DNA from: Candidatus Woesearchaeota archaeon
GTDB lineage: Archaea > Nanobdellota > Nanobdellia > Woesearchaeales > 21-14-0-10-32-9
Direction: 5' to 3'
Length of the DNA: 64,000 bases
NCBI GenBank assembly: GCA_021736975.1
Contig: JAIPET010000003.1
Location: forward strand, 1,452 to 65,451
Under the pieces are notes generated by a model, which saw nothing but the letters and a program-made list of their open reading frames with translations, ran no database searches and was not told where the DNA came from. A program made the position numbers and the translations under genes. Shown here one piece after another: positions 1 to 53,599 of this stretch. Position 1 is the stretch's first letter. Each line of letters starts with the position of its first letter.

Positions 1-44
1 AAGCACAAAAATATGAAGACCTTTTAAAAAAACCAATAAGAATA

Positions 45-6000: not shown

Positions 6001-9000
6001 CTGATTTGTATGGAGAACAATTTGTAGATGGAAATATGAATCCTGAAGCATTATCGCAAAATTTAATATCTTGTTCATCAATAGGAGATGGCGACTGGGT
6101 ATACTCTTGGTATGATGACGGATCAAACGATATATCTTTTGCAATAGTTAATGAAACAAACACTATAGAAATAACAGAAACAGATTTAGATCTTGATGTT
6201 GGAGAAACAGCACAAGTAGCAATGACCGGACTTACAGATAAAAAATTTGCGATAGCATATTACGATTCAAATGATGACAACATATATTTATCAATAAGAC
6301 AACACTCGCCATATGGATTAGTGACTGTTCTTGATAAAACACTAGATACAAATTTAGGAGGAGATACAAAATTAGCATTATCAGAAATAAACAAACAAGG
6401 AATAAGCGAATTCGTAGTTGCATGGCAAAAAAATGGAGCAATAACAACAGAAATATATGACGACATAGGTAATATAGTAACGCCAAAATATAATATAACC
6501 TTAAACTCGAATATAAATTATCAATTAATAGGACTTGAAAGCTATCATTCACCAACAACAACAGGATTATGCTCAGGAACTTTTGTAATAGGATATACAA
6601 ATGATGAAAATAAAACAGTATTTTCATTTGAAAAAACTGATGGGACAGAATGGGATGGAGGAAGTTGTGATAATACGCCTCCAAATATTACTTTTGTAGA
6701 TCCAACATTACCAAATGGAACTGTAAGTAATTTAACCACAGTATATACAAATATTTCCATAAACGAATCAGAACTAGGACTTTTTAAATTTCAATGGGAA
6801 GGACAAAATACAACAATATACAACGAATCACTAATAATAGGATTTAATTTTGATAAAGAAACATCAATAGGGGAAACTAACACTAATTTACACGACATAA
6901 GCATATATCAAAATAATGGAACTTTAAATGGCGGAGAAGGAGATGAATACACAGCAAATGGAAAACATAATGGAGCATACGACTTAGACGGATTTGATGA
7001 TTTAATAGAAACAAACGACATATCAGAAATAGATAGTGCAGAAGAATTAACAATAAGTGCATGGATAAAAGTAGATGATTTAAATGACGATGGAACAATA
7101 ATAGCAAAAGATGACTTTGTATCAAACCCACTTCTTTTATTATATAGAGATGAAACAGGAAAAGGAGGAAGAACAGACGCATTTACTGCAATAATAAGTG
7201 ATGGAACAACTAATGCAACTTTAACAACTACAACAAGTTCTTCTAATGATAATAATTGGCATCATATAGCTATGACATTTAAAGCAGGATCAACACAAGG
7301 ATTGAGAATTTATATAGATGGACAAGAAGATCCAAATAGTAATGTTTCAACAATAGGAATATCAAATTTAAATTCAAACTCATACACATTAAGAATTGGA
7401 GCACCACACGTAACACTAAATAAAAATTTAGACGGATCAATAGATGAATTAATGATATATAATAGAGAATTAACATCTCAAGAAATTACAGAATTATATA
7501 AAGGATATTTAAAAAAATATGATACGGACAAATACTATTATTTTTCAAATCATTCAAATTTAATATATGATACTTACTCATTTAAAGGATATTCAGAAGA
7601 CATAATAGGAAATCCATCAGAAACAGATTTAAGATCAACAATACTAGCACCAGATCCATTTGCACCAGAAATAACCTTTGTACCTCCAACATATTCTGAC
7701 GGCGCATTAACAACAGACAGATTCGTACCAATAAACGTATCGATAAAAGAAACAAACCTGGCGAATGTATTAATAGAATGGAATAATACCAATCAAACAC
7801 TAATGGACAATTCATTAGTTTTAATATATAATTTTGACAACATAAGTGACTTGGGAGAAAATAATTCATATGTAAAAGATAATTCACCAAATAATTTACA
7901 AGGAACAATATATGGCACTCCTTATTTTAACAATTCAGGAAAATACTATGGATCAATAAAAACAGGAACAGGAAATTTTGTAAGAAATGATTATGTATCA
8001 GAATATATATCGGAACAAAATTTTACAATATTAATGTGGACAAAAAAATCATCATCAACACCACAACAATTTATATTAGGAATAAATTCAAATAACGGAG
8101 TAACAAATAGATTATTATTAGGTCATCAAAATGCACAAACAAACATGTCATTATATGATGAAAATGAAGGATGGGTAACAACAAATGCAAACATAAATGA
8201 CGATGAATGGCATCAAATAGGTTTAAGATATGACGTGACAACCGGAAATATGTCATTAATATACGATGGACAATTTATTCAAAATTATACGAGTTCAGTA
8301 AATATCGCAACAGATGATAGATTTGTGCTAGGCGCAGAATACGACGGCGCAAGCGCAGGAGATTACTGGCAAGGGCACATAGATGAATTAAAAGTATTTT
8401 CAAGAAGTTTAACAAAAGAAGAAATACAATATAATTATAATTCAAATCTAAATAGATTAAATTCATCCTATTGGATCTTATATTCAAATCAAACAAATTT
8501 AACTTTAGGAACATATTCATATAAAATATCAGCATCAGACGTACCGACAAGTTCAACAATATCAGAAACAAGAACAATAACAATATTTGACAAATACATA
8601 ATAGATTATAATCAAGCAATAGATATAGAAATGACTCCTCTTGACAACACAACAATAGTATATGCTTGGATTGATGCATCAACAAACTATGCAAATTTTG
8701 AAATATTTGATACAAATGGAACAAGAATAATAGATGAAATAACAATAGATACAGATGGAGGACCATATAGTAGAATATCTGTAGCTGCAATAAATACAAA
8801 TAAATTTGTAATCGCATTAGGAGATGATCCGGACGATGATTTAGCGTATTGGATATATGATAGAGATGGAATCCTAGTAAGTGCAGAATCAATAATAGAT
8901 ACAAACATAGGCGTAAATTTTGATTTATCTATAGCTGAATTAGGAGATAGATTTGTAATTTGTAATGCGAATGATAACGATAATGATGCAGATTTTAGAA

Positions 9001-12000
9001 TATATGATAATTCAGGAACAGATATATCCGGAGAATTAAATGTAGATGGAAATATGAACCCAGATTCACAATCAACAAACTATGTTGATTGTGCAAGTTT
9101 AGGAGATGGAGATTGGGTATATTCTTGGTATGATGACAACTCAAATGCAATAAGAGTTTCAGCAAGAGATGAAAATGGAACAATATATCAAACAATAACA
9201 CCAGATTCAAATATTGGAGAACAAGGACAAATAGCAGTAACAGGATTAAGAAATAAAAGATTTGCAACATCATTTTTTGATGATTCAACAAATGAAATAC
9301 AAATGAATGTATATTTATTAAGTGGCGCTAGCATAGTTTCTATTTTAGCAAACACAGTAATAGATACAGGCATATCAGCATCAAACATAGAAATAGCAGA
9401 AGTAGAAGATTCAGGAGAAAGTTACTTTGTAATAGCATGGCAAGATGATGTTGATGGAACAATAAAAGCAGCAACATATGACGATTCAGGAATAGAAAGA
9501 ACAGCACCATTTAATATAACAACAAATCCTAATCAAAATTACCAATTAATAGATGTTGCAGGTTTTTATTCTTCACTAGGATTTGGACTTTGCGATGAAT
9601 CATTTGCAATAGGAATAACAAACTCAACAAATCACACAACTTTCAAAACATACAATTTAGATGGAATTGAATGGAACGGACAATGCATAATAGATACAAC
9701 ACCTCCAAACATAACATTAAATGAACCAACAAACGGACAAACTCTAAATAACTACACAGTAACATTCAACTGGACAGCCACAGATAATGATGCGATAAAC
9801 ATGACTTGTGACCTAATAATAGATGACATAACAAGAGAAACAGGAACAATTTTAACAAACAACACATCATATTCAACAACAGCAAACGTAGGAATAGGAT
9901 TACACGAATGGTACGTAGAATGTACAGATGAAGAAGCAAACACAGGAACAAGCGATACAAGAACATTCACAATAAACATACTAAGTAATACTAATAATGT
10001 TACGTTAGATAGATTAGGAACGCTTGGAACATTAATATATCAAGACACAGATAATGCAGGAACACCATTACAAAGAAACTGGACAGGAACACTAGGTGCA
10101 GAAGAAATATTAGCACCAGATTTAGGAGCAATAATAAGCTGGCAAAAATTCATATGCTCAAAAATAAATCCTGAATGCTACTTAGTAGCACAAGAAACAG
10201 ACAACTCAATAGACTTCTTAGTTTATAATTTAGAAACAAGAATATGGCATAATCAAACAACTCTAACAGCAAACAGAGGATTAGATGATCAAAGAAGCTT
10301 TGATATAGCCTGTGAAGATGATGGAGTAAGCGAAGAATGTTTAATAATATATGAAACATCAACAGCAGCAAATAATGAATTTGAATATAGAATATGGGAT
10401 GGACAAAATATTAGTTCTGCAAATACTGTTGTAGTAACAGAAGCACCAAATAATGATTTTAGATGGGTATCATTATATCCACAAAAAGGAACTAATACAA
10501 TAGGATTAGTTGTACAAAATGATGCTGGTGCCAGAAATAGATATTCTATGATTTGGAACGGAGATAACAATTCAATAATAAATCAACATAACTTATCATT
10601 AAATGCAGCAGGAAACGATAGAAAACAATATGATTGTGCATGGGAAGGAAGTTCAGGAAAATTAATATGTGCTTACGGAGAAAACACAGATGATTTATTT
10701 GCAAAAGAATACAATCCTTCAACACAAGAATGGAGCTACATAGGAAACATATATCCTGCATTAGGAGCACAAGCAAGAGAAGTAACACTATGTGGAGAAA
10801 CACCATATACATCAGATTTTACACATGATTATATAGGTATAATGACTTGTGATCAAGATGAAGATAGAGATGGAGGCATATGGGATGGAAACACATTTTC
10901 AAAAGCAGCAATAGGAGATACGCCTTCTCAAGATACTGCTAGTGAATGTGATGCAAACGAAAATAATCCAGAATTATACTCGCAAGCATGCGCATTTGAA
11001 AGATCAGGAGATCAAATAATATTTACTTGGGTTGATGCAAACGAGAATTTCCCAGAAGGAGGAACATACACAATAAGTTCAGACGAATGGTCATTTACAA
11101 CATGGGGAGATGGAATTCCAATAGGAATATCAGGAACAGATGATGTTGAAGAAATACAATTAATTCCAAACCCGGTAACTGATGAAATATTTTTAATTGA
11201 TCAAGATGCATCAGAAGAATTAAGTTGCGCAATATGGACTGGCAGAGCATTCACAGCAACAGATTGTGGAGATTATGAATTAACAGGACCTGCAACGGCA
11301 CAAGGAGCATATATAAGTTATGACTGGATAAGATTTGACTCACAACCAAGAATAATATTTAACGAACCACTAGATGAACGAACATACACATACTCAGGAA
11401 TAACAACAAATACATTCACACACGAAGCATATTATGGTGCAACACTAAATCTTCCAGGAACACCACCTTTAACAACTAATGAAACAAATAATTCAGGATA
11501 CACAGCTATGTCGATAGCAGATAATAATTATTTTACAACCACGATAACAACAACAGGAGGAGAAAGAGCATACCAAAATTTCAAATTTGAAATACAACAA
11601 ACACCAGATGAAATAGGGGAAATAAAAATATTCCACGAAGGATACGCAACAGCAACAACATTCCAAACGCAAGATACATATTATTTTTACATCTATAATC
11701 ATACTTCAGATAATTATGTTTTATTAAAAACAAATGATAATACTCATGCTTATGATATATTTACAGAAATAAAAATACAATCAGGATTCTCAGATTTTAT
11801 TCAAGATGGAAATTTATATATTTTAATAGAAGGAAATCATCAGACTGGAGGAGGAGGAAATGCAAGAGCAGATATATACACAGATTACATAGAACTTGAC
11901 GTGAATTCAACACCAAATATAAATGAAATACAAACAATAAATATAGATGCAATAGATCAAAACGGAATAGAAGGATGTTTTTATAACTATGAAAATCTAA

Positions 12001-15000
12001 CAGGAACACTTTACTTTAATTACTCACTAACACAAATAAATTTTACAAACTTTCAAACAACATCAAACACAACCCACAGAACGGACAACTATTACCATCT
12101 AAATATGTATTGCAATGATACTTTTGACAAACAAACAAAAGAAACAGAATTAGTAAGAATAGATAATACTGTACCGCTAGTGAATTTAATAATTCCAAAT
12201 GAATCAGATTACTTTTCATATTCAGAAGTAAATTTCTCTTTTAACGCAACAGATAATTCAGACGGATTACTAAGTTGTATAATAAACACAGATGGTTCAA
12301 CAAACATAACAAACATATTATTAGATTCAGGAAATACAGCAAATGAAACAATATCAGGATTTTCAGATGGAATACACACATGGTATGCTGCATGTATGGA
12401 TGTAGCAGGAAACTGGTACACTACAGGACAAAGATCCTTCACTACAGATGCAGGCGCACCAACAATAACACTAAAAGCACCTTCAAATAATACTATAACA
12501 AACAATAACAATATACAATTCAACTACACACCTGACGATGCAATAGGACTTTCAAAATGTGAATTAATAATAAACGGCCAACTAAATCAAACAAATTCAA
12601 CAACAATTCAAAATCATTTAACCAACTCATTTACAATAAATAGCATGCCTGATGGAGCGTATAATTGGTTTGTCAACTGTACAGACTTATCAAATTTTAC
12701 AGGTTCAAGTGAAACTTGGTATCTAACAGTTGACACCACACCTCCATCAACATATCTAAATACAACGAGTGGAATAGAATTTACAAATGGATCTGCACAA
12801 TTAAATTATACAACAATAGACTTATTAGATAATAGTTTAATATGTAATATAAGTGTAGATGATGAAATAAAAGATCAAGATATAACTTCATCAAATAACA
12901 CACTTATATCAAGAAATTTAACATTAGCAGATGGAATAAAATTCTGGTATGTAACTTGTGTTGATGAAGCAGGAAACATAAACATATCAGAAACAAGAAA
13001 TTTCACATTAGGAGGCCCTCCATATATAGAAATGTACGAACCCTACTTAAATGACATAGTATCTGGAACAGATACAGATTTTAACTTTTTTGTACAAGAT
13101 GGAGACGGGGTAGATAATTGTTCATTATATATAGATGATACATATAATCAAACAATAGACGGTGGAGATTTAGATAATCCAGGAAATAATTCATTCACAG
13201 TTTCCAATATAGCTGCAGGAACACATAATTGGAGTATATATTGTATAGATTCAACATTATTATATAGAATAACAGATGCAATAAATTTCACAGTAGATAA
13301 AACAGCTCCAACTATAACTTTAGAAGAACCAATAAACGGATCACAAATAACTACAAACCCTGTAGAATTTATATTCACTCCAAATGACAATGCAGCATCA
13401 ATATTAACATGTAGTTTAATAATAGATGGAAATATTTCGACAACAAATAATAACTTTAATTCAACTAACAATGAAGCAACATCTGTTTATGAAACAATAT
13501 CTAACGGCAATCATAATTGGAGCGTAACTTGTAAAGATAGCGTAGAAAATTCAAATACATCAATAACAAAATATTTCTCATTATTAGCACCATTAACAGT
13601 AATAATAGAAACAAATGAAACAGCATATAATGGCGGAGAAACCGCGGGAATAACAACAAACACAACAGATGAATCAAATAATTCAATAAACGCTACAACT
13701 ATAACAGATATAATATATACTAATACAACAATAACTCAAGCACCATGGTGGAACATAAATTGGAAAGAAAGAAAACCAATAATAATAACAGAAAATGACA
13801 ACAGGACAAGAACAAACGATTTAATAAAAATAAACATAACAAATATAGATATAACAAATTGTCAAAATGAAATACGATTAGTCAAATTCATCCAACATCA
13901 AAATACTGAAATAGCCAGAAACATATTGAGTGGAGACAATTCTACATATTGTGAGATAGAATTTTATACAAATATAACTCAAGGAGATATATTAAACGAT
14001 ACTTATTTTGTATATTATAATTATTCATCAGCTCCAGCAACCGCACCCACAATTTCTGATAATAAAGTATTAAATGTACAAAGAGATACAATAACTGCAA
14101 CAGGACAAATATTATTAGATGCAGTAAGTACAATAAATCCAGATAATTCATTCATATTATTTTCTGCAAATACAGGAAGCACAGCTCCTAATCAAAATCA
14201 ATTAACCCCCAATATAACAAGCTCAACAATAATACAATTTACAAGATACGTTGGAACAACATCAACAGATTTATCTTGGCAATTAATAGAACATAAAGAT
14301 ATAACAGCACAAAGAGGAGAAGAAACAATAACCGCGGGCTCAACAGGAACAAATGTAAATATTTCAGCTGTAAATTTAGACAATTCATTCATAATAGTAT
14401 ATGGTAGAGCAGATAGCGGAAGTGCAAATAATAATCACGACGGATACTTTACAGCAGAATTTGTTGATTCAGATACAATAAAACTAACAAGAACAAGTAC
14501 AACAAATGACGCGACAGTAAGTTGGCAAGTAGTAGAATGGCCAGATATAAATGTACAAACAGGAGTTACAAATTTTACAACCGCATCACAAACAGCACCG
14601 ATAAACACAATAAATATATCAAGATCATTTCTAATATTTGGAAAAGCAGTAAGTGGAGATACAGGACTTGATGCAAATCATATAAGAGGAAAAATAAATT
14701 CTCCATCAGAAATAGAATTTAATAGACAAGTAGGTCAAGGAAGCGCAAGTGTATCTTGGTTCGTTGTAGAATTACCAGAAGATTCAATAGTAGAATCAGG
14801 AACAAAAACAATAACTGCAGACACAACACAAACTTTAACAAACGAATTCACATTAGATCAATCATTTATGATAGATAGTTCAGATAGTTCAGGAGGCGGA
14901 ACAACATATACAAATGCAATGGTAAAAACAAATCTTAATGATTCAACAACATTATTTTTTGATAAAGAAACAACTTCAAACACAAACTACGACGATTGGT

Positions 15001-18000
15001 TCGTAATGAAACCAAGCATATACAGTTTAATAACCAAAAGTATAGGTGATAAACAAGTATTTATGCACCAAAATATAACAACAACAGGAATATTAGGAAC
15101 AACTTTTTGGAATTACAGTACAGCATATTTAAACGAAGGACTTGCATCAGCAATATCAACAGGAACAGCATCAGGATTTTCTCAAGGAACTGATGCTACA
15201 AGTTTTACAGTAACCTCAGATATATTAGGACCTACAATAACACTATTAAGTCCTGAAGATGATATAACGTATATTTCACAGGATTTAATATTTGTTTATA
15301 CTGCAGAAGACATATCTACAGGAGTGGCGGAATGTAAATTATTATTTAATGGAGTTGTAAACAAAACAGAAACAATAATTTCAGAAATAGATAATAACGA
15401 ATTTGAAGTATTAAACATATCAGAAGGATATTACAATTGGACTGTTACTTGTAAAGATACCTACGGTAACTGGGAAACAGCGTCCCCGAGAGATTTATAC
15501 ATAGATAATACGAATCCAAATGTAACTGCTCACAATCCAAATAATGAAACTATAAACGCATTAGATATAATATTTAACTTTACAGTATCAGATAATTTCG
15601 ATGACAATTTATACTGCGCAGTAAACGTTGACGATACATATAATGGAACAGGTTACGTACTAAATGGAACAACAGGAAATATAAGTATATCTGAAATTGG
15701 AGATGGAGACCATTCATGGAATGTTACTTGTTTTGATAATGCAAATAATAACTTCACATCAGAAACATTAAATTTCACATCAGATGCTCCACCAAGAATA
15801 ACATTAGACACACCAATAGATGAATATGGAACAACAATTGGAAATGTTTCATTTTATTACTTTGTAACAGATGGAACATTACAAAACTGTTCAATATTGT
15901 TTGATGGCTCAATAAACCAAACAAAAAACTCAGCACAAATACCATATCAAGACGGCTCAAATATTAATAATTTCACAATAAATAACATAGCTGAAGGAAC
16001 ACATAATTGGACAATACAATGTTATGATGGAAATGGGTTTTCATCAAATGCAACAGAAAGAACATTATACGTAGACACACAAAACCCGATAATAAATTTA
16101 ACAAGTCCAGAAGAAAACACAACATTTTACATAGATAATATAGATTTTGAATTTAATGTAACCGATAATATAGATCCAGAGTTATCTTGTTCATTATATA
16201 TAAATGATGTGATAAATGAAACAGGAATAAATGCGACAAATGGAAATATAACAACAGTAAATGTAAATGGTTTCCTTGCAGGAAATTATAATTGGTCTAT
16301 ATATTGTGAAGATAAAGCATTAAATAATATAACAAGTGAAACAAGAAATTTTACAATAAGTTCAGACGTAATAGTATCTTTAGAAAATCCATATGATAAT
16401 TCAACAGATGGAGATGGAACTGTGACATTCACATATACACCAAGCAGCGTAGCAGGATTTGAAACAGGAGGATTTTGCGAACTATATATAGATGGATCAA
16501 GTAGTCAAACAGACATAGGTGTAAATAATGGTTTATCAAATACATTTATATCTCTAACTCCAATGACTCAAGGACTACACACTTGGCAAGTAAAATGCAC
16601 AGATGATAATGTAAACTCAGGACAATCAAATATATGGAATATATACATAGACTTATCTGATCCAGTAGTATCAACTCACAATCCAAACGGAGAAACATAT
16701 AACGTAAGCACTGTAGAATTTAATTGGACAGCAACAGATAATTATGATAATAATATGAGTTGTAACATAATAGTAAACGGAACAACACAAACACCATCAA
16801 ATATTTCATCAATAAATAATACACCTACACAACAAACATACACAGGATTTACAGATGGATTACATACATATTACGGTATATGTCTTGATAATGGAGATAG
16901 AACCGGAATTTCTTCAACTAAAAATTTTAATGTACAAGAACCACCGACAATATTATTGGATTTGCCATTAAATGAATATAGAACAAATATAACAAACATA
17001 ACATTTTATTATACACCAACAGACAATTCAGGAAATATAAGTTCGTGTGAAATAGTACTAGACAGTACTTCAAATAATACAGAACCAAGTCCGCAAAATG
17101 CGATACAAAACAACTTAACAGTAAACAACTTTGTTCATGGAAAATACTTATGGACAATCAATTGTACTGATCCCTCAGGAAATGAAGGAACAAACATAAC
17201 GGGAAGAAACATAACAATAGATTTAGTAGGACCAAACATAACTCTGAACGAACCATACGAAGGACAAATATACAATTACGACGACATAATAATAAATTGG
17301 ACTCCAACAGATGATTATGGAACAGACATTACCTGTGATCTAACAGTAGATGACACAATAAACGCATCAGGAATAACGGGAAATTCAGGAAATGACTTTA
17401 CATACTTAATAGAAAATTTCTCAGAAGGACCTCACAACTGGTCAGTAATCTGTAGAGATGATTTATATAATTATAACACAAGCATAACAAATAGCTTCAT
17501 AGTTAACAGTCCCGACTTATATATTAATAACTCATTAATATCCTTTAACGAAACAAATCCAGACATAGGAGAAACAATTCAAATAAATGCAACAATATAC
17601 AACTATGGGGGAATAGATGCAGAAAATGCATTAATAGAATTTTGGGATGGTCTTCCAGGAACTGGAACGCTAATAGGAAATGACACTATAAATATAACAA
17701 TAAATGAAAGTACAGATGCAACAACAACATGGAATATAACAGCAGGATATCATAATGTCTGGGTAATAGCAGATCCATACGAAACAATGGTAGAATTAAA
17801 TGATTCTAATAACAACGCAACAACAAATATATCTATACTAATGGGAAATTTAACCAATCCATTAAACGAAACATGGACTTCGAATGCAAATACAACAATA
17901 ACTTTTAACCTAACCGATTTCACAGGAAGCATAATAAATTACACAATTTATGTGGATGGTTCTCCTTCAGTATATACAGGAACTGTAAATGATGCAGAAT

Positions 18001-20435
18001 CAAATCAAATCAATATAACATTATCTCAAGGAACAAGAACAATAATGATAAGAGCTACTGATTCAATTTCAAGAATAAAAGATAGCAATATTATAACAAG
18101 ATATGTTGATCTAACAAACCCATCAAGTGTTATCAACACTGCAAACGAAACATGGTATAATTATTCAACACCAGAAATAAACTTTACAATAAATGATAAC
18201 ATGGACACAATGTTAAATTATACTTTTTACGTAAATGGATCAGTTGATATAATAGGAAATCAAACAGCAGCAGTTCCAGGAAAAATAAATCTATCAACAT
18301 TAGTAAATGGATCATATCAAATAATATTAGAAGCAAAAGATGAAGTAAACAGAACAACAAATTCAACACCGATAATAATTTATGTTGACACAGTAGCGCC
18401 AACAATAAATCTAAACGCTCCAAATAACTCAGATATATTTATAGTAAATGATGTAAATTTGAATTTTACAATCACGGATAACTTAGCAGTAGGCCCAGAT
18501 CAATTAACATGCGACCTAACACTAGACGGATCAGTTTATTCAAATGACTTTACAGCAACAAGCGGAATACAAGAAAATATTTTAGCAACTGATTTAATTG
18601 AAGGAAATCATTACTGGAATGTAACGTGTACAGATTTAGCAGGAAATACACAAACATCAGAAACAAGAAACTTTACATCCGTAGCAGTACCAGTAATAAC
18701 ACCAATAACGCCACTAAATAATACATGGATAAATCAAGGAACATACACATTTTATTTTAATGCAACAGATGAAACCGGACTAGAAAATTGCTCATTAATA
18801 ATTGACGGATTTATAAATTCAACAAAAACAACTGCACAACTAACAAATAATGCAACTAATAATTTAACAGCAACAGGATTGAATGGAACACATACATGGG
18901 CAATAGAATGTTACGATAATAGTACATTTAACGCATATGATATAACAGAAACATACACAATATATGCAGATTTAGAAGCACCACAACCAATATTTATAAC
19001 ACAAAATAATACTTGGTTAAACTCAGGACCTACACTAGAATTTAACATAACTGACAACATGGACTCCGCAATATTTTATAACATATACATAAACGGAATA
19101 TACAACAAAAATGGAACTGCACCAAATGGTTTCCTGACAATGGATGTTCCTACAGGCTTAATAAATGGAACTTATAATGTAACTATAGAAGCAATAGATG
19201 AAGCAACAAATACAGCTAATAGTACAACAATAAAAATAAATTATGACACAGCAACACCTTTAGTAACTTTAGATTTTCCCCTTGAAACAAATTATACACA
19301 AACATCACTAGATCTAAATTTTACAACATCAGATAATATGGCTGAATATTTAATGTGTACTGTCATAATGGATACAAATACAATAGGTTCGAATTTAAAT
19401 GTAACAAATAATTCACAACAAAACGTGACAGTAAATAATCTTGCAGGAGGATATCATTACTGGAATGTAACTTGTATAGATTTAGCAAATAATTCATACA
19501 CAACAAACACACAATCGTTTTACATAGTAAGACCAGATTTGACAATCAACAATTCAGAAATATATTTTAACAATTCAGACGTAAGAGAAAATGAAACAAT
19601 AAATATAACTGCAACGATAAGAAATATAGGAACAAGTGACGCAAACAATTTTGTAACACAAATATGGGCAAATCACCCAGATAATTCTGGTACACAAATA
19701 GGAACAGATTTTCATATGAACCTAACAGCGGGAAATTATACAAATATTTCAGTAACTTACACAGTGCCTTTAGGAACTACACAAATATATGTGTTAGTAG
19801 ATACACCAACAGGATCAAATGGATTAGTAGCAGAAGAAAATGAAAGTAATAATGAAGAATATAAAGAAATAACAGTAGAATCTTGGCATTACGCATTCGG
19901 GCAAACGGGAGATAAATTAGTAGTAAATGATGCAAACAACGGAACATTATTTGATTGGATAAAAAGTAATAGTTCTGGTTCAAACTTATTTGCAGTAGAT
20001 TCAGATTCAGTAATTACATGGACACAGTTACAAGCACTAGGAAGAGATACGAGTAATAATTCTCAAACAGGAGATTTCACAGAACTAGATATAGCACTAG
20101 GATCAGAAAATTATACGGATAATATAACTACGACTTTTACGAATAGCGGAACACCAATAGAAACAACCAGTTATAATATATTTGGAAAAACAATAAATAA
20201 CATACCGATGCAAAACAGCACAAATAACACGAATTTCAAAACAGGAATACTTTGGGATTATTCAGACGGCGGTCCTCAGTATTCAGGGACACAGGACGTA
20301 CTCTTTATGAGCCAGATAAAAGACGACTTAATTGGATTCAATGCTACGTACGATTATGAAATCAGAATTCCTGCAAAACTAAGAGAATACACAGGAGCCA
20401 CAAACACAGTAGACTTCTACATTGAGATAAGGTAG
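45..20435 (+). CDS. Giant multidomain surface/adhesin-like protein (at least 6796 aa; probably 5'-truncated by the window edge)
   Basis: Uninterrupted 20.4-kb frame in stop-prone AT-rich DNA; the frame also stays open from nt 3 to the first ATG at 45, and there is no N-terminal signal peptide. Read from the translation (all nt approximate): DUF2341-like (GWYNQLWEKCKDINI) plus LamG-like, 850-1830. Seven to eight FG-GAP/VCBS repeats with DxDxDG loops, 2245-3410. Two units of [LamG-LamG-propeller-like], 3669-9695. W-x-G propeller-like region, 9990-11340. Ig-like ~95-aa modules with a Cys pair, 12165-13590 and 15230-19530. PWWNINWKERKPIII DUF2341-like plus 4-fold repeat, 13740-15015. CARDB-like domains, 17508-17840 and 19530-19880. 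Stop TAG at 20433-20435. Confidence 0.9.
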   Translation: MSSEGQTNRIKYEIINTRQYKNLNTKDQTINLAQTQTQTKYDLLMNLNQTIEENTTIMLEETQIPEINTELRIEKLQKQGQKINGEEILKSYAMDLSNLDFTKGTFTTKAKGKQLFKCKDWNYSSQQCLGTWKKIKDLIPGQEYEIIITPEDPGYIETTLTILNVKSNPLLNNYWTINFTTIGKENIIIKPISQTTWRKPNENNPADLEFTTLTCGQKTIIPTWNKNTIDIENYECNETSQLKIFELTEGKHTMYFQFGNDSALAFNDASGWYNQLWEKCKDINITNFAGQILYNYTTLLKIPYDSQMQSDYEDLRFTDQACGQGGQEIGYDIETYNSTEAMTWVRIPTLNTSGTTISMYYSNPTALNGENEDDAWRSDYGIVYHMDSLGLDSSGNGNDRTADDGTPTSTNTILGYGITFNGSTAWDMTNIGYWESSFSERTHEVIFETSNNVSGRQTILAEGGGTNGLMLYILDGIIYSRWWSEGGAVNMGGALLNTTISPNSLYYLTMTYNNETNYTLYINKTRISFNYSTDIIDAHGGNGGIGYTGPDSKDFEDTAGQGYYFKGTIHELRAQDKELTWAEINQTYENIFNNTNSFTIGSAQEVPTNKTDITINIYDMLNNSDYSDDILLNSITYYNESINGGKIDFGRITQIDSDNTYRIEIVLNMKTDFEIDADYFKETFIKTKNNVSFSTQNTTTQPEFIIGTSYVPTDGYWTQDIFYSQTVNSNYTNSAVGEFGYIDGDPDIVAIYNNDLKVYQTPQDTYYGGDWTEYVANTDVGTISFDNKVVLADIDRDGYLDAFVANDNEDIRAYQNPKDPFGTTWTERMIDSSLNARDVTALAAGDLDNDGWIDVCGGIEARDDIYCFQNDGTPWDADWVQSTIELAAGGDLEDIVIADINRDGLQDIIASVQGVNDITWWENDGTPWDGVSWTPRDIDTNTGQLSNVVKVVDLDLDGDLDVVQGDDGGDIAIYENNGSNPPGFTKYLAYDGPGGEDIVGLAIADINDDGKPDIIYGAESANDVEYLENSGTPWSTGWTSVPISTNTGSTPWTVEIADIDKNGYVDVIVGNNGAEIIAYFNNGTPSAGEWNSNILESAAAGSVYSIAIGDLDKDNYSNILEFYYNATENFENGTGTFSGQTTLSQGNHTFNFIITPDNDFGINKPVNTSFFIGSEQYDGWKIYEEKAALADIYPIRITWEVLVNYVDVIPPNISFIEPPTPINGLITENKNQNFLATINETNLKELKFEFNNINTTQYSENLVLMMNLDNESSLTENNNFVKDLSKYSNDGDPQGQASPTTGVYGGAYTFDGSGDYIQIESDSTLDIQNFTFTTWFKTGPSTSWTSYPSIIMRGDGGAGNELYIGFSASTQDTIVVILDGSIQNFDGNVDLIDQQWHHLTVTYDSTTISVYIDGEQYANNVSLTRTLNFGGRLYLGLDTDALDASFGNYWNGQLDEIRLWNTTFNPTTINEWYTSNLKKYNDDEWNLTVNKTNLNYGTYDYKIYATDHIDQTINTTLRNLTISPDTTYPQINFIYPTPENATGTYETNLNIRTNITEENILSLIYNWNGTNITIYNNSLVLQYNYDKITELGENDSFIVDTSIYKNNGTLKNDARYELQGKYNRGVYFDGTGDYVEILSDTALDVQDFTYMTWFKTGPNTSWTSYPSFFMRGDSGTSNELFIAINDTDNDSIAVMLDNTIYSTGSGTNLIDQQWHHLAVTYDSSTIKVYLDGEQYGNNISAVKTLNFGTSNAWIGTDTDTYNGNFGNYWNGTFDESRLWNVSLDAQSINKAYNSNLEKTGNQTWILNTYENNLGIGTYTFQTFIEDTGTNTNTTGEYSVNLFETGVLDYDEAADISIAALDDFTVAIAWIDQNSYNASFEIWQANKTRLVDKTTFEFDGNANSRISITPISSTQFAIGIIDGPESDLDIWIYDVDGNEILSRTELDNNLASFTDVSLTPLTDRFIVCNANDADNDADYRIISLAGTDLYGEQFVDGNMNPEALSQNLISCSSIGDGDWVYSWYDDGSNDISFAIVNETNTIEITETDLDLDVGETAQVAMTGLTDKKFAIAYYDSNDDNIYLSIRQHSPYGLVTVLDKTLDTNLGGDTKLALSEINKQGISEFVVAWQKNGAITTEIYDDIGNIVTPKYNITLNSNINYQLIGLESYHSPTTTGLCSGTFVIGYTNDENKTVFSFEKTDGTEWDGGSCDNTPPNITFVDPTLPNGTVSNLTTVYTNISINESELGLFKFQWEGQNTTIYNESLIIGFNFDKETSIGETNTNLHDISIYQNNGTLNGGEGDEYTANGKHNGAYDLDGFDDLIETNDISEIDSAEELTISAWIKVDDLNDDGTIIAKDDFVSNPLLLLYRDETGKGGRTDAFTAIISDGTTNATLTTTTSSSNDNNWHHIAMTFKAGSTQGLRIYIDGQEDPNSNVSTIGISNLNSNSYTLRIGAPHVTLNKNLDGSIDELMIYNRELTSQEITELYKGYLKKYDTDKYYYFSNHSNLIYDTYSFKGYSEDIIGNPSETDLRSTILAPDPFAPEITFVPPTYSDGALTTDRFVPINVSIKETNLANVLIEWNNTNQTLMDNSLVLIYNFDNISDLGENNSYVKDNSPNNLQGTIYGTPYFNNSGKYYGSIKTGTGNFVRNDYVSEYISEQNFTILMWTKKSSSTPQQFILGINSNNGVTNRLLLGHQNAQTNMSLYDENEGWVTTNANINDDEWHQIGLRYDVTTGNMSLIYDGQFIQNYTSSVNIATDDRFVLGAEYDGASAGDYWQGHIDELKVFSRSLTKEEIQYNYNSNLNRLNSSYWILYSNQTNLTLGTYSYKISASDVPTSSTISETRTITIFDKYIIDYNQAIDIEMTPLDNTTIVYAWIDASTNYANFEIFDTNGTRIIDEITIDTDGGPYSRISVAAINTNKFVIALGDDPDDDLAYWIYDRDGILVSAESIIDTNIGVNFDLSIAELGDRFVICNANDNDNDADFRIYDNSGTDISGELNVDGNMNPDSQSTNYVDCASLGDGDWVYSWYDDNSNAIRVSARDENGTIYQTITPDSNIGEQGQIAVTGLRNKRFATSFFDDSTNEIQMNVYLLSGASIVSILANTVIDTGISASNIEIAEVEDSGESYFVIAWQDDVDGTIKAATYDDSGIERTAPFNITTNPNQNYQLIDVAGFYSSLGFGLCDESFAIGITNSTNHTTFKTYNLDGIEWNGQCIIDTTPPNITLNEPTNGQTLNNYTVTFNWTATDNDAINMTCDLIIDDITRETGTILTNNTSYSTTANVGIGLHEWYVECTDEEANTGTSDTRTFTINILSNTNNVTLDRLGTLGTLIYQDTDNAGTPLQRNWTGTLGAEEILAPDLGAIISWQKFICSKINPECYLVAQETDNSIDFLVYNLETRIWHNQTTLTANRGLDDQRSFDIACEDDGVSEECLIIYETSTAANNEFEYRIWDGQNISSANTVVVTEAPNNDFRWVSLYPQKGTNTIGLVVQNDAGARNRYSMIWNGDNNSIINQHNLSLNAAGNDRKQYDCAWEGSSGKLICAYGENTDDLFAKEYNPSTQEWSYIGNIYPALGAQAREVTLCGETPYTSDFTHDYIGIMTCDQDEDRDGGIWDGNTFSKAAIGDTPSQDTASECDANENNPELYSQACAFERSGDQIIFTWVDANENFPEGGTYTISSDEWSFTTWGDGIPIGISGTDDVEEIQLIPNPVTDEIFLIDQDASEELSCAIWTGRAFTATDCGDYELTGPATAQGAYISYDWIRFDSQPRIIFNEPLDERTYTYSGITTNTFTHEAYYGATLNLPGTPPLTTNETNNSGYTAMSIADNNYFTTTITTTGGERAYQNFKFEIQQTPDEIGEIKIFHEGYATATTFQTQDTYYFYIYNHTSDNYVLLKTNDNTHAYDIFTEIKIQSGFSDFIQDGNLYILIEGNHQTGGGGNARADIYTDYIELDVNSTPNINEIQTINIDAIDQNGIEGCFYNYENLTGTLYFNYSLTQINFTNFQTTSNTTHRTDNYYHLNMYCNDTFDKQTKETELVRIDNTVPLVNLIIPNESDYFSYSEVNFSFNATDNSDGLLSCIINTDGSTNITNILLDSGNTANETISGFSDGIHTWYAACMDVAGNWYTTGQRSFTTDAGAPTITLKAPSNNTITNNNNIQFNYTPDDAIGLSKCELIINGQLNQTNSTTIQNHLTNSFTINSMPDGAYNWFVNCTDLSNFTGSSETWYLTVDTTPPSTYLNTTSGIEFTNGSAQLNYTTIDLLDNSLICNISVDDEIKDQDITSSNNTLISRNLTLADGIKFWYVTCVDEAGNINISETRNFTLGGPPYIEMYEPYLNDIVSGTDTDFNFFVQDGDGVDNCSLYIDDTYNQTIDGGDLDNPGNNSFTVSNIAAGTHNWSIYCIDSTLLYRITDAINFTVDKTAPTITLEEPINGSQITTNPVEFIFTPNDNAASILTCSLIIDGNISTTNNNFNSTNNEATSVYETISNGNHNWSVTCKDSVENSNTSITKYFSLLAPLTVIIETNETAYNGGETAGITTNTTDESNNSINATTITDIIYTNTTITQAPWWNINWKERKPIIITENDNRTRTNDLIKINITNIDITNCQNEIRLVKFIQHQNTEIARNILSGDNSTYCEIEFYTNITQGDILNDTYFVYYNYSSAPATAPTISDNKVLNVQRDTITATGQILLDAVSTINPDNSFILFSANTGSTAPNQNQLTPNITSSTIIQFTRYVGTTSTDLSWQLIEHKDITAQRGEETITAGSTGTNVNISAVNLDNSFIIVYGRADSGSANNNHDGYFTAEFVDSDTIKLTRTSTTNDATVSWQVVEWPDINVQTGVTNFTTASQTAPINTINISRSFLIFGKAVSGDTGLDANHIRGKINSPSEIEFNRQVGQGSASVSWFVVELPEDSIVESGTKTITADTTQTLTNEFTLDQSFMIDSSDSSGGGTTYTNAMVKTNLNDSTTLFFDKETTSNTNYDDWFVMKPSIYSLITKSIGDKQVFMHQNITTTGILGTTFWNYSTAYLNEGLASAISTGTASGFSQGTDATSFTVTSDILGPTITLLSPEDDITYISQDLIFVYTAEDISTGVAECKLLFNGVVNKTETIISEIDNNEFEVLNISEGYYNWTVTCKDTYGNWETASPRDLYIDNTNPNVTAHNPNNETINALDIIFNFTVSDNFDDNLYCAVNVDDTYNGTGYVLNGTTGNISISEIGDGDHSWNVTCFDNANNNFTSETLNFTSDAPPRITLDTPIDEYGTTIGNVSFYYFVTDGTLQNCSILFDGSINQTKNSAQIPYQDGSNINNFTINNIAEGTHNWTIQCYDGNGFSSNATERTLYVDTQNPIINLTSPEENTTFYIDNIDFEFNVTDNIDPELSCSLYINDVINETGINATNGNITTVNVNGFLAGNYNWSIYCEDKALNNITSETRNFTISSDVIVSLENPYDNSTDGDGTVTFTYTPSSVAGFETGGFCELYIDGSSSQTDIGVNNGLSNTFISLTPMTQGLHTWQVKCTDDNVNSGQSNIWNIYIDLSDPVVSTHNPNGETYNVSTVEFNWTATDNYDNNMSCNIIVNGTTQTPSNISSINNTPTQQTYTGFTDGLHTYYGICLDNGDRTGISSTKNFNVQEPPTILLDLPLNEYRTNITNITFYYTPTDNSGNISSCEIVLDSTSNNTEPSPQNAIQNNLTVNNFVHGKYLWTINCTDPSGNEGTNITGRNITIDLVGPNITLNEPYEGQIYNYDDIIINWTPTDDYGTDITCDLTVDDTINASGITGNSGNDFTYLIENFSEGPHNWSVICRDDLYNYNTSITNSFIVNSPDLYINNSLISFNETNPDIGETIQINATIYNYGGIDAENALIEFWDGLPGTGTLIGNDTINITINESTDATTTWNITAGYHNVWVIADPYETMVELNDSNNNATTNISILMGNLTNPLNETWTSNANTTITFNLTDFTGSIINYTIYVDGSPSVYTGTVNDAESNQINITLSQGTRTIMIRATDSISRIKDSNIITRYVDLTNPSSVINTANETWYNYSTPEINFTINDNMDTMLNYTFYVNGSVDIIGNQTAAVPGKINLSTLVNGSYQIILEAKDEVNRTTNSTPIIIYVDTVAPTINLNAPNNSDIFIVNDVNLNFTITDNLAVGPDQLTCDLTLDGSVYSNDFTATSGIQENILATDLIEGNHYWNVTCTDLAGNTQTSETRNFTSVAVPVITPITPLNNTWINQGTYTFYFNATDETGLENCSLIIDGFINSTKTTAQLTNNATNNLTATGLNGTHTWAIECYDNSTFNAYDITETYTIYADLEAPQPIFITQNNTWLNSGPTLEFNITDNMDSAIFYNIYINGIYNKNGTAPNGFLTMDVPTGLINGTYNVTIEAIDEATNTANSTTIKINYDTATPLVTLDFPLETNYTQTSLDLNFTTSDNMAEYLMCTVIMDTNTIGSNLNVTNNSQQNVTVNNLAGGYHYWNVTCIDLANNSYTTNTQSFYIVRPDLTINNSEIYFNNSDVRENETINITATIRNIGTSDANNFVTQIWANHPDNSGTQIGTDFHMNLTAGNYTNISVTYTVPLGTTQIYVLVDTPTGSNGLVAEENESNNEEYKEITVESWHYAFGQTGDKLVVNDANNGTLFDWIKSNSSGSNLFAVDSDSVITWTQLQALGRDTSNNSQTGDFTELDIALGSENYTDNITTTFTNSGTPIETTSYNIFGKTINNIPMQNSTNNTNFKTGILWDYSDGGPQYSGTQDVLFMSQIKDDLIGFNATYDYEIRIPAKLREYTGATNTVDFYIEIR
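3669..6671 (+). repeat. Intragenic tandem duplication unit A (LamG - LamG - 7-blade propeller-like), about 1000 aa
   Basis: Begins VIPPNISFIEPPTP. Contains two LamG-like blocks (..YTFDGSGDYIQI..GQLDEIRLWN.. and ..VYFDGTGDYVEI..GTFDESRLWN..). These are followed by LDYDEAADISIAALDD...CNANDADNDADYRI...GDGDWVYSWYDDGSNDI.... Colinear with unit B; boundaries approximate. Confidence 0.7.
6672..9695 (+). repeat. Intragenic tandem duplication unit B (LamG - LamG - 7-blade propeller-like), about 1000 aa
   Basis: Begins NTPPNITFVDPTLP. Contains two LamG-like blocks (..GSIDELMIYN.. and ..GHIDELKVFS..). These are followed by IIDYNQAIDIEMTPLDN...CNANDNDNDADFRI...GDGDWVYSWYDDNSNAI.... Same order and similar length as unit A, diverged at protein level. 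Confidence 0.7.
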
Positions 20436-40350: not shown

Positions 40351-40376
40351 TATTGAAAAGATTAAGAATATTTAAA

Positions 40377-46631: not shown

Positions 46632-47348
46632 ATGGCTAAATTCATATGTGTAATGAGTGGAAAAGGAGGAGTTGGAAAAACAACAACTGCAACAAATTTA
46701 GGCCTTGCAATACAAAAAATCGGAGAAGACGTAATAGTTCTAGATGGAAATCTAAGTTCACCAAACCTATCTTTACACCTAGGAAATACATATTTTCCAG
46801 TAACAATACACGATGTTATGCAAAACATACACCACATAAGCAAAGCAATTTATAATCATCATACAAATCTAAAAATAATACCCGCAGAACTAGGAATAGA
46901 TGCAATGAAACTAGTAGACTTTAATAAACTAGAAAAAAATTTGCAAGACTTACACTTAATGACAAAATATCTAATAATAGACGGTTCACCAGGACTAGGC
47001 AGAGAAAGCACACAACTAATAAATATTTCAGATGAAATATTAGTAGTAACAAACCAAGACACACCAAGTTTAGTAGACGCAAAAAGACTAATAAACATGG
47101 TAAAAAGACAAGGAAAAACAATAACAGGAGTAATAATAACAAAATACAAAAAAAGAAAATATAGATTATCAAAAGACGAAATATCAGAATTTCTAGAAGT
47201 GCCTATACTAGCAACAATAAAAGAAGACAAAAGATTTGAAAAAACAATAAACAAAAAAACACCATATATACACTTATATCCAAAAGCAAAAGCAAGCCAA
47301 GGATACTACAAAATCGCAGAAGCAATAACAGGCAGGACTCATTACTAA
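46632..47348 (+). CDS. MinD/ParA-family P-loop ATPase (archaeal MinD-like)
   Basis: Deviant Walker A VMSGKGGVGKTTTATNLG; DGSPGLG (Walker B region); length and layout typical of the family. Confidence 0.85.
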   Translation: MAKFICVMSGKGGVGKTTTATNLGLAIQKIGEDVIVLDGNLSSPNLSLHLGNTYFPVTIHDVMQNIHHISKAIYNHHTNLKIIPAELGIDAMKLVDFNKLEKNLQDLHLMTKYLIIDGSPGLGRESTQLINISDEILVVTNQDTPSLVDAKRLINMVKRQGKTITGVIITKYKKRKYRLSKDEISEFLEVPILATIKEDKRFEKTINKKTPYIHLYPKAKASQGYYKIAEAITGRTHY

Positions 47349-53563: not shown

Positions 53564-53599
53564 GAAAACTATAAAAACTAGAGAGGCGTACTTTAAAAA

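What the first reader, a model, noticed from the sequence alone, without database searches (positions are those of the whole stretch)
13740..15015. Shared core module: DUF2341-like domain followed by a four-fold ~85-aa repeat, present once in each giant
ORF1 13740-15015 and ORF2 32020-33300 have the same layout. It begins (P/S)WWNxxWxxRKxIxI...Y(V/H)YY(N/D)... and is followed by four repeats. Each repeat follows the pattern ...NSF(I/L)(L/I)(F/L)S...(T/S)xIx(F/L)xR...(S/V)SW(Q/F/Y)(L/V)(I/V)E. Examples are NSFILFSAN...IIQFTRYVGTTSTDLSWQLIEH and NSFIILSSK...QISFDRYSAVAGTASWQVIES. In both proteins the module follows an Ig-module run and a small linker domain (...IIYTNTTITQAPWWN and ...LIYTNTTTSSASWWN). 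It is the best-conserved part shared by the two giants, so it is a candidate functional core rather than a spacer. The repeat logic (a strand ending in (S/V)SW-x-(V/L)-(V/I)-E) is reminiscent of H-type-lectin-like beta-sandwiches, but that is only a guess.
Basis: partly seen in the sequence, partly recalled or inferred. Interest (0 to 1): 0.65.

Follow-up and report, generated by a model that had tools for sequence, protein, structure and literature searches.

The report
Uncatalogued four-repeat binding domain in archaeal giants
Both giant secreted proteins of this probable DPANN archaeon carry one copy of a two-part cassette: a divergent DUF2341 domain followed by a compact domain of four beta-sandwich repeats, which belongs to a very large family absent from the domain libraries searched and also found at phage tail-fibre tips and in secreted bacterial proteins, so it most likely recognises a target surface.

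Summary
g1 (nt 13740-15017) and g2 (nt 32021-33301) share one cassette: a ~109-aa N-domain plus four repeats of 77-83 aa. It is the best-conserved stretch between the giants (30-59% identity per 80-aa window, against 20-36% in the flanks).

The two halves are separate things. The N-domain gets no Pfam DUF2341 hit itself. Its profile matches a domain of g2 that passes Pfam's DUF2341 cut-off (hhalign 98.6%).

The four repeats form one indivisible ~320-aa unit. A profile of it finds 5,889 clusters at 50% identity. Among the top hits and their close relatives, 153 of 190 repeat arrays have exactly four repeats. No Pfam, NCBIfam, PHROGs or PDB-sequence entry covers it.

AlphaFold gives one compact globule (pLDDT 91, pTM 0.91) with six strands per repeat. 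The closest solved folds are the PCSK9 C-terminal domain and the apicomplexan APC-beta domain. No H-type lectin is among the matches, so that guess is not supported.

The unit occurs in secreted bacterial proteins (T9SS cargo, a LamG+DUF6701 protein), beside NPCBM, LamG and Calx-beta domains, and in phage tail-fibre genes. The DUF2341-like-plus-unit combination was seen only in proteins whose named copies are DPANN, mostly Woesearchaeota.

The most likely role is a non-enzymatic recognition head. This is inferred, not shown.

The parts
3..20435 (+). Giant ORF g1. It is open at the window's 5' edge, and the first in-window ATG is at nt 45. The full protein is 7158 aa with an N-terminal signal peptide.
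13347..13739 (+). g1 upstream Ig-like domain (NCSL...W.V.C.D motif) plus a short linker ending IIYTNTTITQ. Both are conserved in related Woesearchaeota-type proteins.
13740..14066 (+). g1 N-domain, a divergent DUF2341-like beta-sandwich. It carries WWNINWKERK, two invariant Cys and YFVYYNY.
14067..14300 (+). g1 repeat 1 (78 aa)
14301..14546 (+). g1 repeat 2 (82 aa)
14547..14783 (+). g1 repeat 3 (79 aa). It contains the GDTGLDANHIRGK loop, which is identical in g2.
14784..15017 (+). g1 repeat 4 (78 aa), the most divergent repeat. Its SSGGGTTYTNAMVKTNL loop is identical in g2 and partly conserved across the family.
21659..38761 (+). Giant ORF g2 (5700 aa) with an N-terminal signal peptide.
32021..32350 (+). 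g2 N-domain of the module (DUF2341-like)
32351..33301 (+). g2 four-repeat unit. R1 is nt 32351-32581, R2 32582-32830, R3 32831-33067 and R4 33068-33301.
22067..22393 (+). A further DUF2341-like domain in g2, followed by a weak LamG-like region and not by the unit.
35960..36277 (+). A further DUF2341 domain in g2 that passes Pfam's gathering score. It is followed by a three-part region with a weak H_lectin hint.

Best explanation
The module is a cassette of two independent extracellular domains.

(1) A ~109-aa, seven-strand beta-sandwich with two invariant cysteines. It is a divergent DUF2341 domain.

(2) A ~320-aa compact globule made of four homologous ~80-aa repeats, each with six strands. 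The repeat core motifs are VQxG, SF(L/I)(L/I)xS, (L/I)xFxR and WxV(V/I)E.

Domain (2) belongs to a very large family that is inherited as a fixed four-repeat unit. It has no entry in the Pfam, NCBIfam or PHROGs copies searched and no sequence match in the PDB.

I propose that domain (2) is a non-enzymatic recognition head that binds a ligand, glycan or protein, on another cell's surface. The DUF2341-like domain would act as a pedestal or adaptor that presents it. In the two secreted, sequon-rich giants of this probable Woesearchaeota-like DPANN archaeon, the cassette would then contribute to attachment to a host or substrate.

Shown here: the anatomy, the homology of the repeats, the size and spread of the family, the predicted fold, and the domain and gene contexts.

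Inferred only: ligand binding, the nature of the ligand, the adaptor role, and the role in DPANN attachment.
For: Repeat and unit:
- All repeat pairs are homologous.
- Among the top profile hits and their close relatives, 153 of 190 arrays have exactly 4 repeats and 12 have 8.
- Nearly all top hits match the whole 324-position profile.

Family size: 5,889 clusters at 50% identity at E<=1e-3, and 895 at E<=1e-30.

No annotation:
- Pfam, NCBIfam, PHROGs and PDB sequences give nothing.
- Newer precomputed Pfam hits leave unit-only proteins blank.

Fold:
- The unit alone gives pLDDT 91.3 and pTM 0.91, with 6 strands per repeat.
- With the N-domain the model gives pLDDT 90.9 and pTM 0.78.
- The best PDB matches are the PCSK9 C-terminal domain (E 1e-8, about 250 columns) and the PLP1 APC-beta domain. 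To my own knowledge both are interaction domains rather than enzymes.

Extracellular context:
- Signal peptides sit directly before the unit.
- It co-occurs with T9SS sorting domains, NPCBM, LamG, Calx-beta, PKD, PATR and DUF6701.

Phage receptor-binding position:
- In IMG/VR contig L008 the gene with two repeats at its C-terminal tip follows the tape measure, baseplate hub and baseplate wedge genes. It precedes the endolysin.
- In L003 a unit+NPCBM protein and a neighbour with two tandem units flank a gene with a virion-structural hit, next to a collagen-like tail-fibre gene.

Conservation:
- Family-wide conserved residues are the motifs repeated in every repeat. No unique catalytic-looking set stands out.
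- Between g1 and g2 the peak of conservation lies in two loops of R3 and R4.

Adaptor pattern: g2 has three DUF2341-like domains, each followed by a different beta-rich module.

DPANN setting:
- The named homologues of the window's THUMP methyltransferase are from Woesearchaeota and Nanoarchaeota.
- The named carriers of the same cassette are Woesearchaeota and Nanoarchaeota, plus one member labelled Micrarchaeia.
- Both giants have signal peptides and about twice the expected number of N-x-S/T sequons.

Literature:
- DUF2341 large proteins have been proposed as pilus-tip adhesins in archaea (PMC4858521).
- They have been linked to adhesion in Patescibacteria giants (PMC11809585).
- DPANN giant surface proteins have been proposed to mediate host attachment (PMC10266531).
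Against: - No ligand or binding site is known, and the binding role rests on context and fold analogy.
- Fold matches are weak globally (TM 0.36-0.48, rmsd about 7 A, 6-10% identity). They involve three-module domains, not four.
- In many phage-like and T9SS proteins the unit is at the N-terminus. In a phage fibre that is usually the virion-proximal end, so some copies may be structural.
- No match was found in 50,697 isolated phage genomes. The phage link therefore rests on metagenomic contigs.
- Part of the tail-fibre PHROG signal in L003 comes from collagen-like repeats.
- pTM falls from 0.91 to 0.78 when the N-domain is added, so rigid coupling of the two halves is not established.
- The DPANN assignment rests on 35-37% identical homologues of one gene and on names of related proteins.
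Confidence: 0.6

Rival explanations
1. Each repeat is an H-type-lectin-like beta-sandwich, and the unit is a four-fold H-type lectin that binds GalNAc-type sugars.
For: From my own knowledge, not tested here: H-type lectins are also six-stranded beta-sandwiches. The WxV(V/I)E strand superficially recalls their C-terminal strand. Sub-threshold H_lectin hits exist elsewhere in g2 (E 0.017 and 0.12).
Against: There is no PF09458 hit on either module at E<=1. No H-type lectin appears among the top 50 PDB fold matches for either model. The weak H_lectin hints lie in other regions of g2.
Confidence: 0.04
2. The unit is a purely architectural element with no ligand of its own: a rigid hub or strut that spaces or orients neighbouring domains in long surface proteins and fibres.
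For: Conserved residues are core and structural and are repeated in each repeat. The unit is internal in the giants and embedded in a larger conserved cassette of Ig-like domains. It is N-terminal in some phage-like proteins.
Against: Between g1 and g2 it is clearly better conserved than the flanking Ig-like domains, with the peak in loops. Stand-alone proteins of 339-360 aa consist of the unit alone. It forms the extreme C-terminal tip of a protein in the tail-fibre position. It is the first domain after the signal peptide in T9SS cargo, with the sorting domain at the far C-terminal end.
Confidence: 0.2
3. The unit is a membrane-targeting domain like the APC-beta domain of apicomplexan perforin-like proteins. 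It would dock the giant protein on the host's lipid membrane.
For: APC-beta domains are the second group of fold matches (6d7a, 7pln, 5ouo; E 1e-4, probability 0.4-0.87). DPANN cells are thought to contact host membranes (PMC10266531).
Against: These matches are much weaker than those to PCSK9 (TM 0.25-0.34, rmsd 10-20 A). I did not see an obvious conserved hydrophobic loop in the consensus. Most carriers are ordinary secreted bacterial proteins and phage fibres that face cell walls, capsules or outer membranes.
Confidence: 0.08
4. The unit is an uncharacterised enzyme, for example a glycan-degrading domain of the kind found in some phage tail fibres and spikes.
For: To my own knowledge, phage receptor-binding proteins are often depolymerases. 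The unit co-occurs with carbohydrate-related modules (NPCBM, LamG).
Against: It is an all-beta repeat of small sandwiches with no family-wide conserved acidic or nucleophile set beyond the repeated core motifs. There is no match to any enzyme family or fold.
Confidence: 0.05

Closest known systems
PCSK9 C-terminal (Cys/His-rich, V) domain, described as resistin-like (PDB 2p4e, 7anq, 2qtw)
   Same: It is the best solved-structure match (Foldseek E 1e-8, probability 1.0, about 250 aligned columns). It is built of consecutive small six-stranded beta-sandwich modules packed into one globule. To my own knowledge it is a non-catalytic interaction domain.
   Different: It has three modules, not four. 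TM is only 0.36-0.48 and sequence identity 6-10%. From my own knowledge, PCSK9 modules are disulfide- and histidine-rich; the g1 and g2 units contain no cysteine (sequences). No sequence-level homology was detected. Common ancestry is not shown.
APC-beta domain of apicomplexan perforin-like proteins (PDB 6d7a, 5ouo, 7pln)
   Same: It is the second group of fold matches. From my own knowledge it is a beta-rich, internally repeated, pseudo-symmetric targeting domain.
   Different: The match is much weaker (rmsd 10-20 A). From my own knowledge it is three-fold and binds membranes. No sequence similarity was found.
DUF2341 (Pfam PF10102)
   Same: The module's N-domain shares the WWxxxWxxR start and the YYGN-like end (family motifs from my own knowledge). 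Its profile matches a Pfam-validated DUF2341 domain of g2 at 98.6% probability. As in DUF2341 proteins generally (own knowledge), it is followed by a beta-rich putative binding domain. It also occurs in giant proteins of ultrasmall organisms (PMC11809585, PMC4858521).
   Different: It does not reach Pfam's threshold itself. It has two invariant cysteines. Here it is followed by the four-repeat unit instead of LamG.
H-type lectin domain (Pfam PF09458)
   Same: From my own knowledge only: a small six-stranded beta-sandwich used for sugar recognition.
   Different: No sequence or fold match to the repeats was found.
Distal receptor-binding domains of phage tail fibres, and CBM-type modules (NPCBM, LamG)
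   Same: The genomic position and domain company are the same. Repeats sit at the C-terminal tip of a protein in the tail-fibre position, and the unit is fused to NPCBM, LamG or Calx-beta.
   Different: It is a different and so far undescribed fold family. No characterised phage carries it.

Membership tests
DUF2341 (PF10102), for the N-domain | Match to the Pfam HMM at or above the gathering score (23.4 bits) | tested here: not met
   There are no Pfam hits at E<=1 on either module. Only 2 of 17 related N-domains hit PF10102, with best E 0.0034.
DUF2341 (PF10102), for the N-domain | Homology to a domain that does pass the Pfam threshold | tested here: met
   The N-domain profile A2 against g2 aa 4765-4885 gives hhalign probability 98.6% and E 8.6e-16 over 96 columns. 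That region scores 33.6 bits on PF10102.
H-type lectin (PF09458), for the repeats | Match to the Pfam HMM | tested here: not met
   No hit at E<=1.
H-type lectin (PF09458), for the repeats | Fold match to solved H-type lectins | tested here: not met
   None appear among the top 50 PDB matches of either model. A search with a single repeat was not run.
PCSK9 C-terminal-domain-like fold | Modules are six-stranded beta-sandwiches | tested here: met
   DSSP shows six strands per repeat. Foldseek gives E 1e-8 and probability 1.0.
PCSK9 C-terminal-domain-like fold | Three modules in pseudo-three-fold packing | tested here: not met
   There are four repeats. TM is only 0.36-0.48 over about 250 columns. 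The packing geometry could not be inspected because no coordinates were available.
PCSK9 C-terminal-domain-like fold | Disulfide-rich, Cys/His-rich modules (a feature recalled from my own knowledge) | tested here: not met
   The g1 and g2 units contain no cysteine (sequences).
PCSK9 C-terminal-domain-like fold | Detectable sequence homology | tested here: not met
   A profile search of PDB sequences gave no hit at E<=10.
The unnamed four-repeat unit family defined here | Full-length match to the 324-position unit profile | tested here: met
   g1 scores 340.6 bits and g2 307.6 bits, over model positions 4-324 and 4-326. Both sequences contributed to the profile. Independent members match equally well.
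The unnamed four-repeat unit family defined here | Exactly four contiguous homologous repeats | tested here: met
   g1 and g2 each have one array of 4. Across the set there are 153 arrays of 4 out of 190.
Pfam DUF8202 (PF26628), a newer family absent from the local Pfam copy | Whether it covers the unit | not testable with these tools
   It is recorded on seven closely related T9SS proteins that carry the unit. It is not recorded on unit-only proteins such as P0129, P0155 and P0156. Its boundaries are unknown to me.

The most novel reading that the evidence does not exclude
The four-repeat unit is a previously uncatalogued, very widespread receptor-recognition head. It would be shared by phage tail-fibre tips, bacterial surface proteins (T9SS cargo and a LamG+DUF6701 protein) and the giant surface proteins of DPANN archaea. 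In Woesearchaeota the DUF2341-like-plus-unit cassette would be a host-specificity determinant of episymbiosis, possibly exchanged with viruses.
Probability: 0.3. Interest if true: 0.75.

Novelty: new variant of a known kind. Interest (0 to 1): 0.55.

Why it matters
Giant surface proteins of ultrasmall episymbionts (DPANN, Patescibacteria) are thought to mediate host attachment, but most of their sequence is unannotated.

This work isolates one defined, well-folded and strongly conserved cassette inside two such giants. Its larger half belongs to a family of at least about 5,900 sequence clusters for which I found no domain-library entry, no solved structure and no paper in the held library.

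The same unit sits in the receptor-binding position of phage tail fibres and at the start of secreted bacterial proteins. This gives a concrete, testable handle: a 320-aa domain that can be expressed and used to ask what these giants bind.

It would also justify a new domain-family entry, which would annotate thousands of 'hypothetical' proteins.

Tried and rejected
- Pfam and NCBIfam on the module with flanks found nothing.
- PHROGs on the unit and on stand-alone members found nothing meaningful.
- PDB sequence searches with the unit profile and the N-domain profile found nothing at E<=10.
- A BLASTP self-comparison of the modules found no off-diagonal hit, so the repeat is not visible at that level.
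- I tested whether the N-domain is a fifth, degenerate repeat. It is not: hhalign probability is <=1.1% against all four repeat profiles.
- The viral structure library gave only weak matches (TMq <=0.34).
With the g1+g2 alignment it found only two loci, both matching the N-domain alone, in a Betaproteobacteria MAG and a Thermoplasmatales MAG. The source lineage is therefore not in that species set.
- An exact look-up of a window protein in the contig index failed.
- tblastn of two phage-type members against 50,697 isolated phage genomes found no match.
- Literature searches for DUF8202, for MshQ/DUF6701 and for PCSK9-like phage receptor-binding proteins found nothing relevant.
- The newer Pfam entries on P0161 (PF28243, PF28247, PF28238) turned out to be sub-domains of DUF6701, not the unit.
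- No tRNA gene is present in the window.
- Sequencing runs that hold the region are lake-water metagenome DNA only, so there is no expression evidence.


Full report
**Setting**

The window (GC about 28%) is dominated by two giant ORFs on the + strand. g1 runs from nt 45 to 20435 and g2 from nt 21659 to 38761 (5700 aa).

- The g1 frame is open to nt 3. The matching database protein, P0008, is 7158 aa and starts 362 aa upstream of the window with a classical signal peptide.
- g2 also starts with a signal peptide.
- Both are rich in Thr, Asn and Ile. Both carry about twice as many N-x-S/T sequons as their composition predicts.
- Pfam finds LamG, FG-GAP, pentaxin, Big_13 and CARDB domains in g1. 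It finds Big_7, Big_13 and one DUF2341 in g2.
- The named homologues of the window's THUMP methyltransferase are from Woesearchaeota and Nanoarchaeota, at 29-37% identity.
- The region is present in lake-water metagenome runs.

I therefore treat the source as a probable DPANN (Woesearchaeota-like) archaeon. This is an inference.

**Checking the observation**

The described layout is present at the stated coordinates: g1 aa 4566-4991 (nt 13740-15017) and g2 aa 3455-3881 (nt 32021-33301).

- Each module has an N-domain of 109 or 110 aa beginning (P/S)WWNxxWxxRK.
- Each is followed by four repeats of 77-83 aa that share VQxG, NSF(I/L)(I/L), IxFxR and SWxV(V/I)E.
- The two modules are 43-44% identical.
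- Along the collinear homologous region (g1 4412-5831 against g2 3299-4728, 33% identity overall), a sliding 80-aa window gives 30-59% inside the module. The peak lies over repeats 3 and 4. The flanks give 20-36%.

The repeat signal depends on the method.

- BLASTP self-comparison shows nothing.
- Smith-Waterman scores against shuffles give z = 5-17 among R1-R3. R4 is weak or null, with z from -0.3 to 6.3.
- With profiles built from 151 family members, every pair of repeats aligns over 76-81 columns at 99.4-99.8% probability.
- With HMMER filters off, each giant has exactly one unit. The default bias filter silently dropped the g2 hit.

**The N-domain**

- Pfam and NCBIfam give nothing on the module.
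- In 17 of 153 full-length units, beyond the window's own database copies P0008 and P0010, the same N-domain precedes the unit at a fixed distance. This count includes g1 and g2.
- Their alignment shows invariant W-W, two R and two C.
- Only 2 of the 17 touch PF10102, and weakly.
- The profile matches g2 aa 4765-4885 at 98.6% hhalign probability. That region passes Pfam's DUF2341 threshold.
- It also matches a third copy near the g2 N-terminus at 97.9%.
- It is not a degenerate fifth repeat.
- The model of N-domain plus unit shows a seven-strand sandwich (pLDDT 74-92) joined by a lower-confidence linker. pTM is 0.78, against 0.91 for the unit alone.

'Divergent DUF2341' is the appropriate label. 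Rigid coupling to the unit is not established.

**The four-repeat unit**

A word-indexed search with the whole module found only five proteins. All are small (349-738 aa). All carry the four repeats without the N-domain.

An exhaustive profile search found many more:

- 5,889 clusters at 50% identity at E<=1e-3, 3,572 at E<=1e-10 and 895 at E<=1e-30.
- Carrier proteins range from 317 to 7158 aa.
- Nearly all top hits match the whole profile.

A single-repeat model counts 153 arrays of exactly four repeats and 12 of eight. The other 25 arrays have 1, 2, 3, 6 or 7 repeats. One protein has three arrays of three. The four-repeat block is therefore the evolutionary unit.

Nothing in Pfam (a 2025 copy), NCBIfam (2026), PHROGs or PDB sequences covers it. 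Newer precomputed Pfam annotations leave unit-only proteins blank. One newer family, DUF8202, is recorded on a small T9SS subfamily, and I could not place it.

**Structure**

- AlphaFold2 on the g1 unit with a 27-sequence alignment gives pLDDT 91.3 and pTM 0.91. Each repeat has six strands and a short helix.
- Foldseek against the PDB returns the PCSK9 C-terminal domain first (E 1.2e-8, about 250 columns, TM 0.36-0.48).
- The apicomplexan PLP1 APC-beta domain follows at E about 1e-4. The larger model gives the same result.
- No H-type lectin is listed.
- The viral structure library gives only weak matches.

The repeats are thus PCSK9-module-like small sandwiches, but four of them rather than three. 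Global superposition is poor, there are no cysteines and no sequence homology is detectable. This is a resemblance, not family membership.

**Context and likely function**

*Bacterial carriers.* These are secreted proteins.

- The unit often follows the signal peptide directly.
- It is combined with T9SS sorting domains, NPCBM, LamG, Calx-beta, PKD, PATR repeats, or LamG plus DUF6701. To my recollection the last combination is an MshQ-like architecture.

*Met-start carriers.* A second class starts with the unit at the initiator Met (MAVLKSVQSGT...) and has no signal peptide.

- One of these, P0005 (unit plus NPCBM), lies beside a collagen-like tail-fibre gene (phrog_5073, E 3e-98).
- Its next-but-two downstream gene, after two small ORFs, contains two tandem units.

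*Viral contigs.*

- In IMG/VR contig L008 the gene order is tape measure, baseplate hub, baseplate wedge, baseplate protein, a 426-aa protein whose last 160 residues are two repeats, then endolysin. That is the classical tail-fibre position, and the repeats form the distal tip.
- L007 carries portal, major head and adaptor genes upstream of a unit-bearing gene.

*Conservation.*

- Family-wide conserved residues are the core motifs that recur in each repeat. No distinct catalytic-looking set stands out.
- Between g1 and g2, two loops in R3 and R4 are identical.

*Within g2.* Three DUF2341-like domains are each followed by a different beta-rich module. These are a weak LamG-like region, the unit, and a three-part region with a weak H_lectin hint.

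Together this supports a recognition head presented by a DUF2341-type adaptor. It does not prove it. The ligand is unknown.

**The cassette in DPANN**

All named carriers of the N-domain-plus-unit combination are DPANN. They are Woesearchaeota and Nanoarchaeota, plus one member labelled Micrarchaeia. They are annotated only as CARDB, Ig-like or hypothetical proteins.

In these 17 proteins the conserved block is larger than the finding. Its order is Ig-like domain, short linker, DUF2341-like domain, unit, a ~90-aa domain, then another Ig-like domain.

The literature places DUF2341 in large putative adhesins of archaeal type IV pilus loci (PMC4858521) and in giant proteins of Patescibacteria (PMC11809585). 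Giant LamG/PKD/Ig surface proteins of DPANN have been proposed to mediate host attachment (PMC10266531). I found no paper that describes the four-repeat unit.

**Verdict**

It is a functional core, DUF2341-like, with a four-fold repeat, and it is present outside giants. It is wrong on the H-type lectin guess and on treating the two halves as one module.
- The unit is best described as a new, very large, unannotated domain family with PCSK9-module-like repeats. It is a new variant of a known kind (an extracellular beta-sandwich recognition module), not a new principle.
- Main caveats: function is inferred from context, the fold matches are modest, the phage evidence is metagenomic only, and newer domain databases could not be checked.

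Noticed in passing
window 1-45, and P0008: g1 is cut by the window's 5' edge. Its frame is open to nt 3. The database copy is 7158 aa, 362 aa longer, and starts with the signal peptide MKKKLLLILVILLFISLAQA.
   Followed up: yes
window 45-38761 (both giants): N-x-S/T sequons occur at about twice the frequency expected from composition (4.06 against 2.19 per 100 aa in g1, 5.67 against 2.92 in g2). This is consistent with heavily N-glycosylated extracellular proteins.
   Followed up: partly
window about 28100-29200 and 36278-37363 (g2): Two paralogous regions of roughly 330 aa, each with three internal sub-repeats (motifs such as 'TFGKTFSN.P' and 'E.V.WFALE'). Both give only sub-threshold H_lectin hits (E 0.017 and 0.12). 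The second one directly follows a Pfam-validated DUF2341 domain.
   Followed up: partly
window 22067-23158 (g2): A third DUF2341-like domain near the g2 N-terminus is followed by a region with a weak Laminin_G_3 hit (E 1.3e-3, below Pfam's cut-off). In g2 each DUF2341-like domain precedes a different beta-rich module.
   Followed up: partly
window 38758-40350 and 40353-42860: Two ORFs lie immediately downstream of g2, and the first start overlaps the g2 stop. Each has an N-terminal hydrophobic signal-like segment, Ig-like domains (He_PIG, Big_7) and a C-terminal transmembrane segment with a basic tail. They could be membrane-anchored partners of the giants, for which a crude scan found no transmembrane segment.
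   Followed up: partly
window 13347-13739 and 15018 to about 15500, and the same regions in 15 related proteins: The block conserved across Woesearchaeota-type proteins is larger than the finding. An Ig-like domain and a linker precede the module. A ~90-aa domain and another Ig-like domain follow it.
   Followed up: partly
P0057, and L008 7185-8465: Repeat number is not absolutely fixed. One protein has three arrays of three repeats. A phage protein in the tail-fibre position carries only two repeats, at its C-terminal tip.
   Followed up: partly
window 32351-33301: HMMER's default bias filter silently dropped the strong g2 unit hit (307.6 bits with --max). Standard pipelines may miss domains in these Asn/Thr-rich giants for this technical reason.
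   Followed up: yes
window 51033-55882: Two adjacent family-2 glycosyltransferases and an acyltransferase_3 gene lie downstream of the giants. A ParA/MinD-type ATPase (46632-47348) and an MFS transporter (47350-48522) lie further upstream. The glycosyltransferases may relate to surface glycan synthesis. This was not examined.
   Followed up: no
L003 6067-13481 (JGI metagenome contig): A likely phage tail-fibre locus encodes three copies of the unit in two nearby proteins, one of them fused to an NPCBM carbohydrate-binding module. The contig also carries HNH, DnaJ and NUDIX genes.
   Followed up: partly
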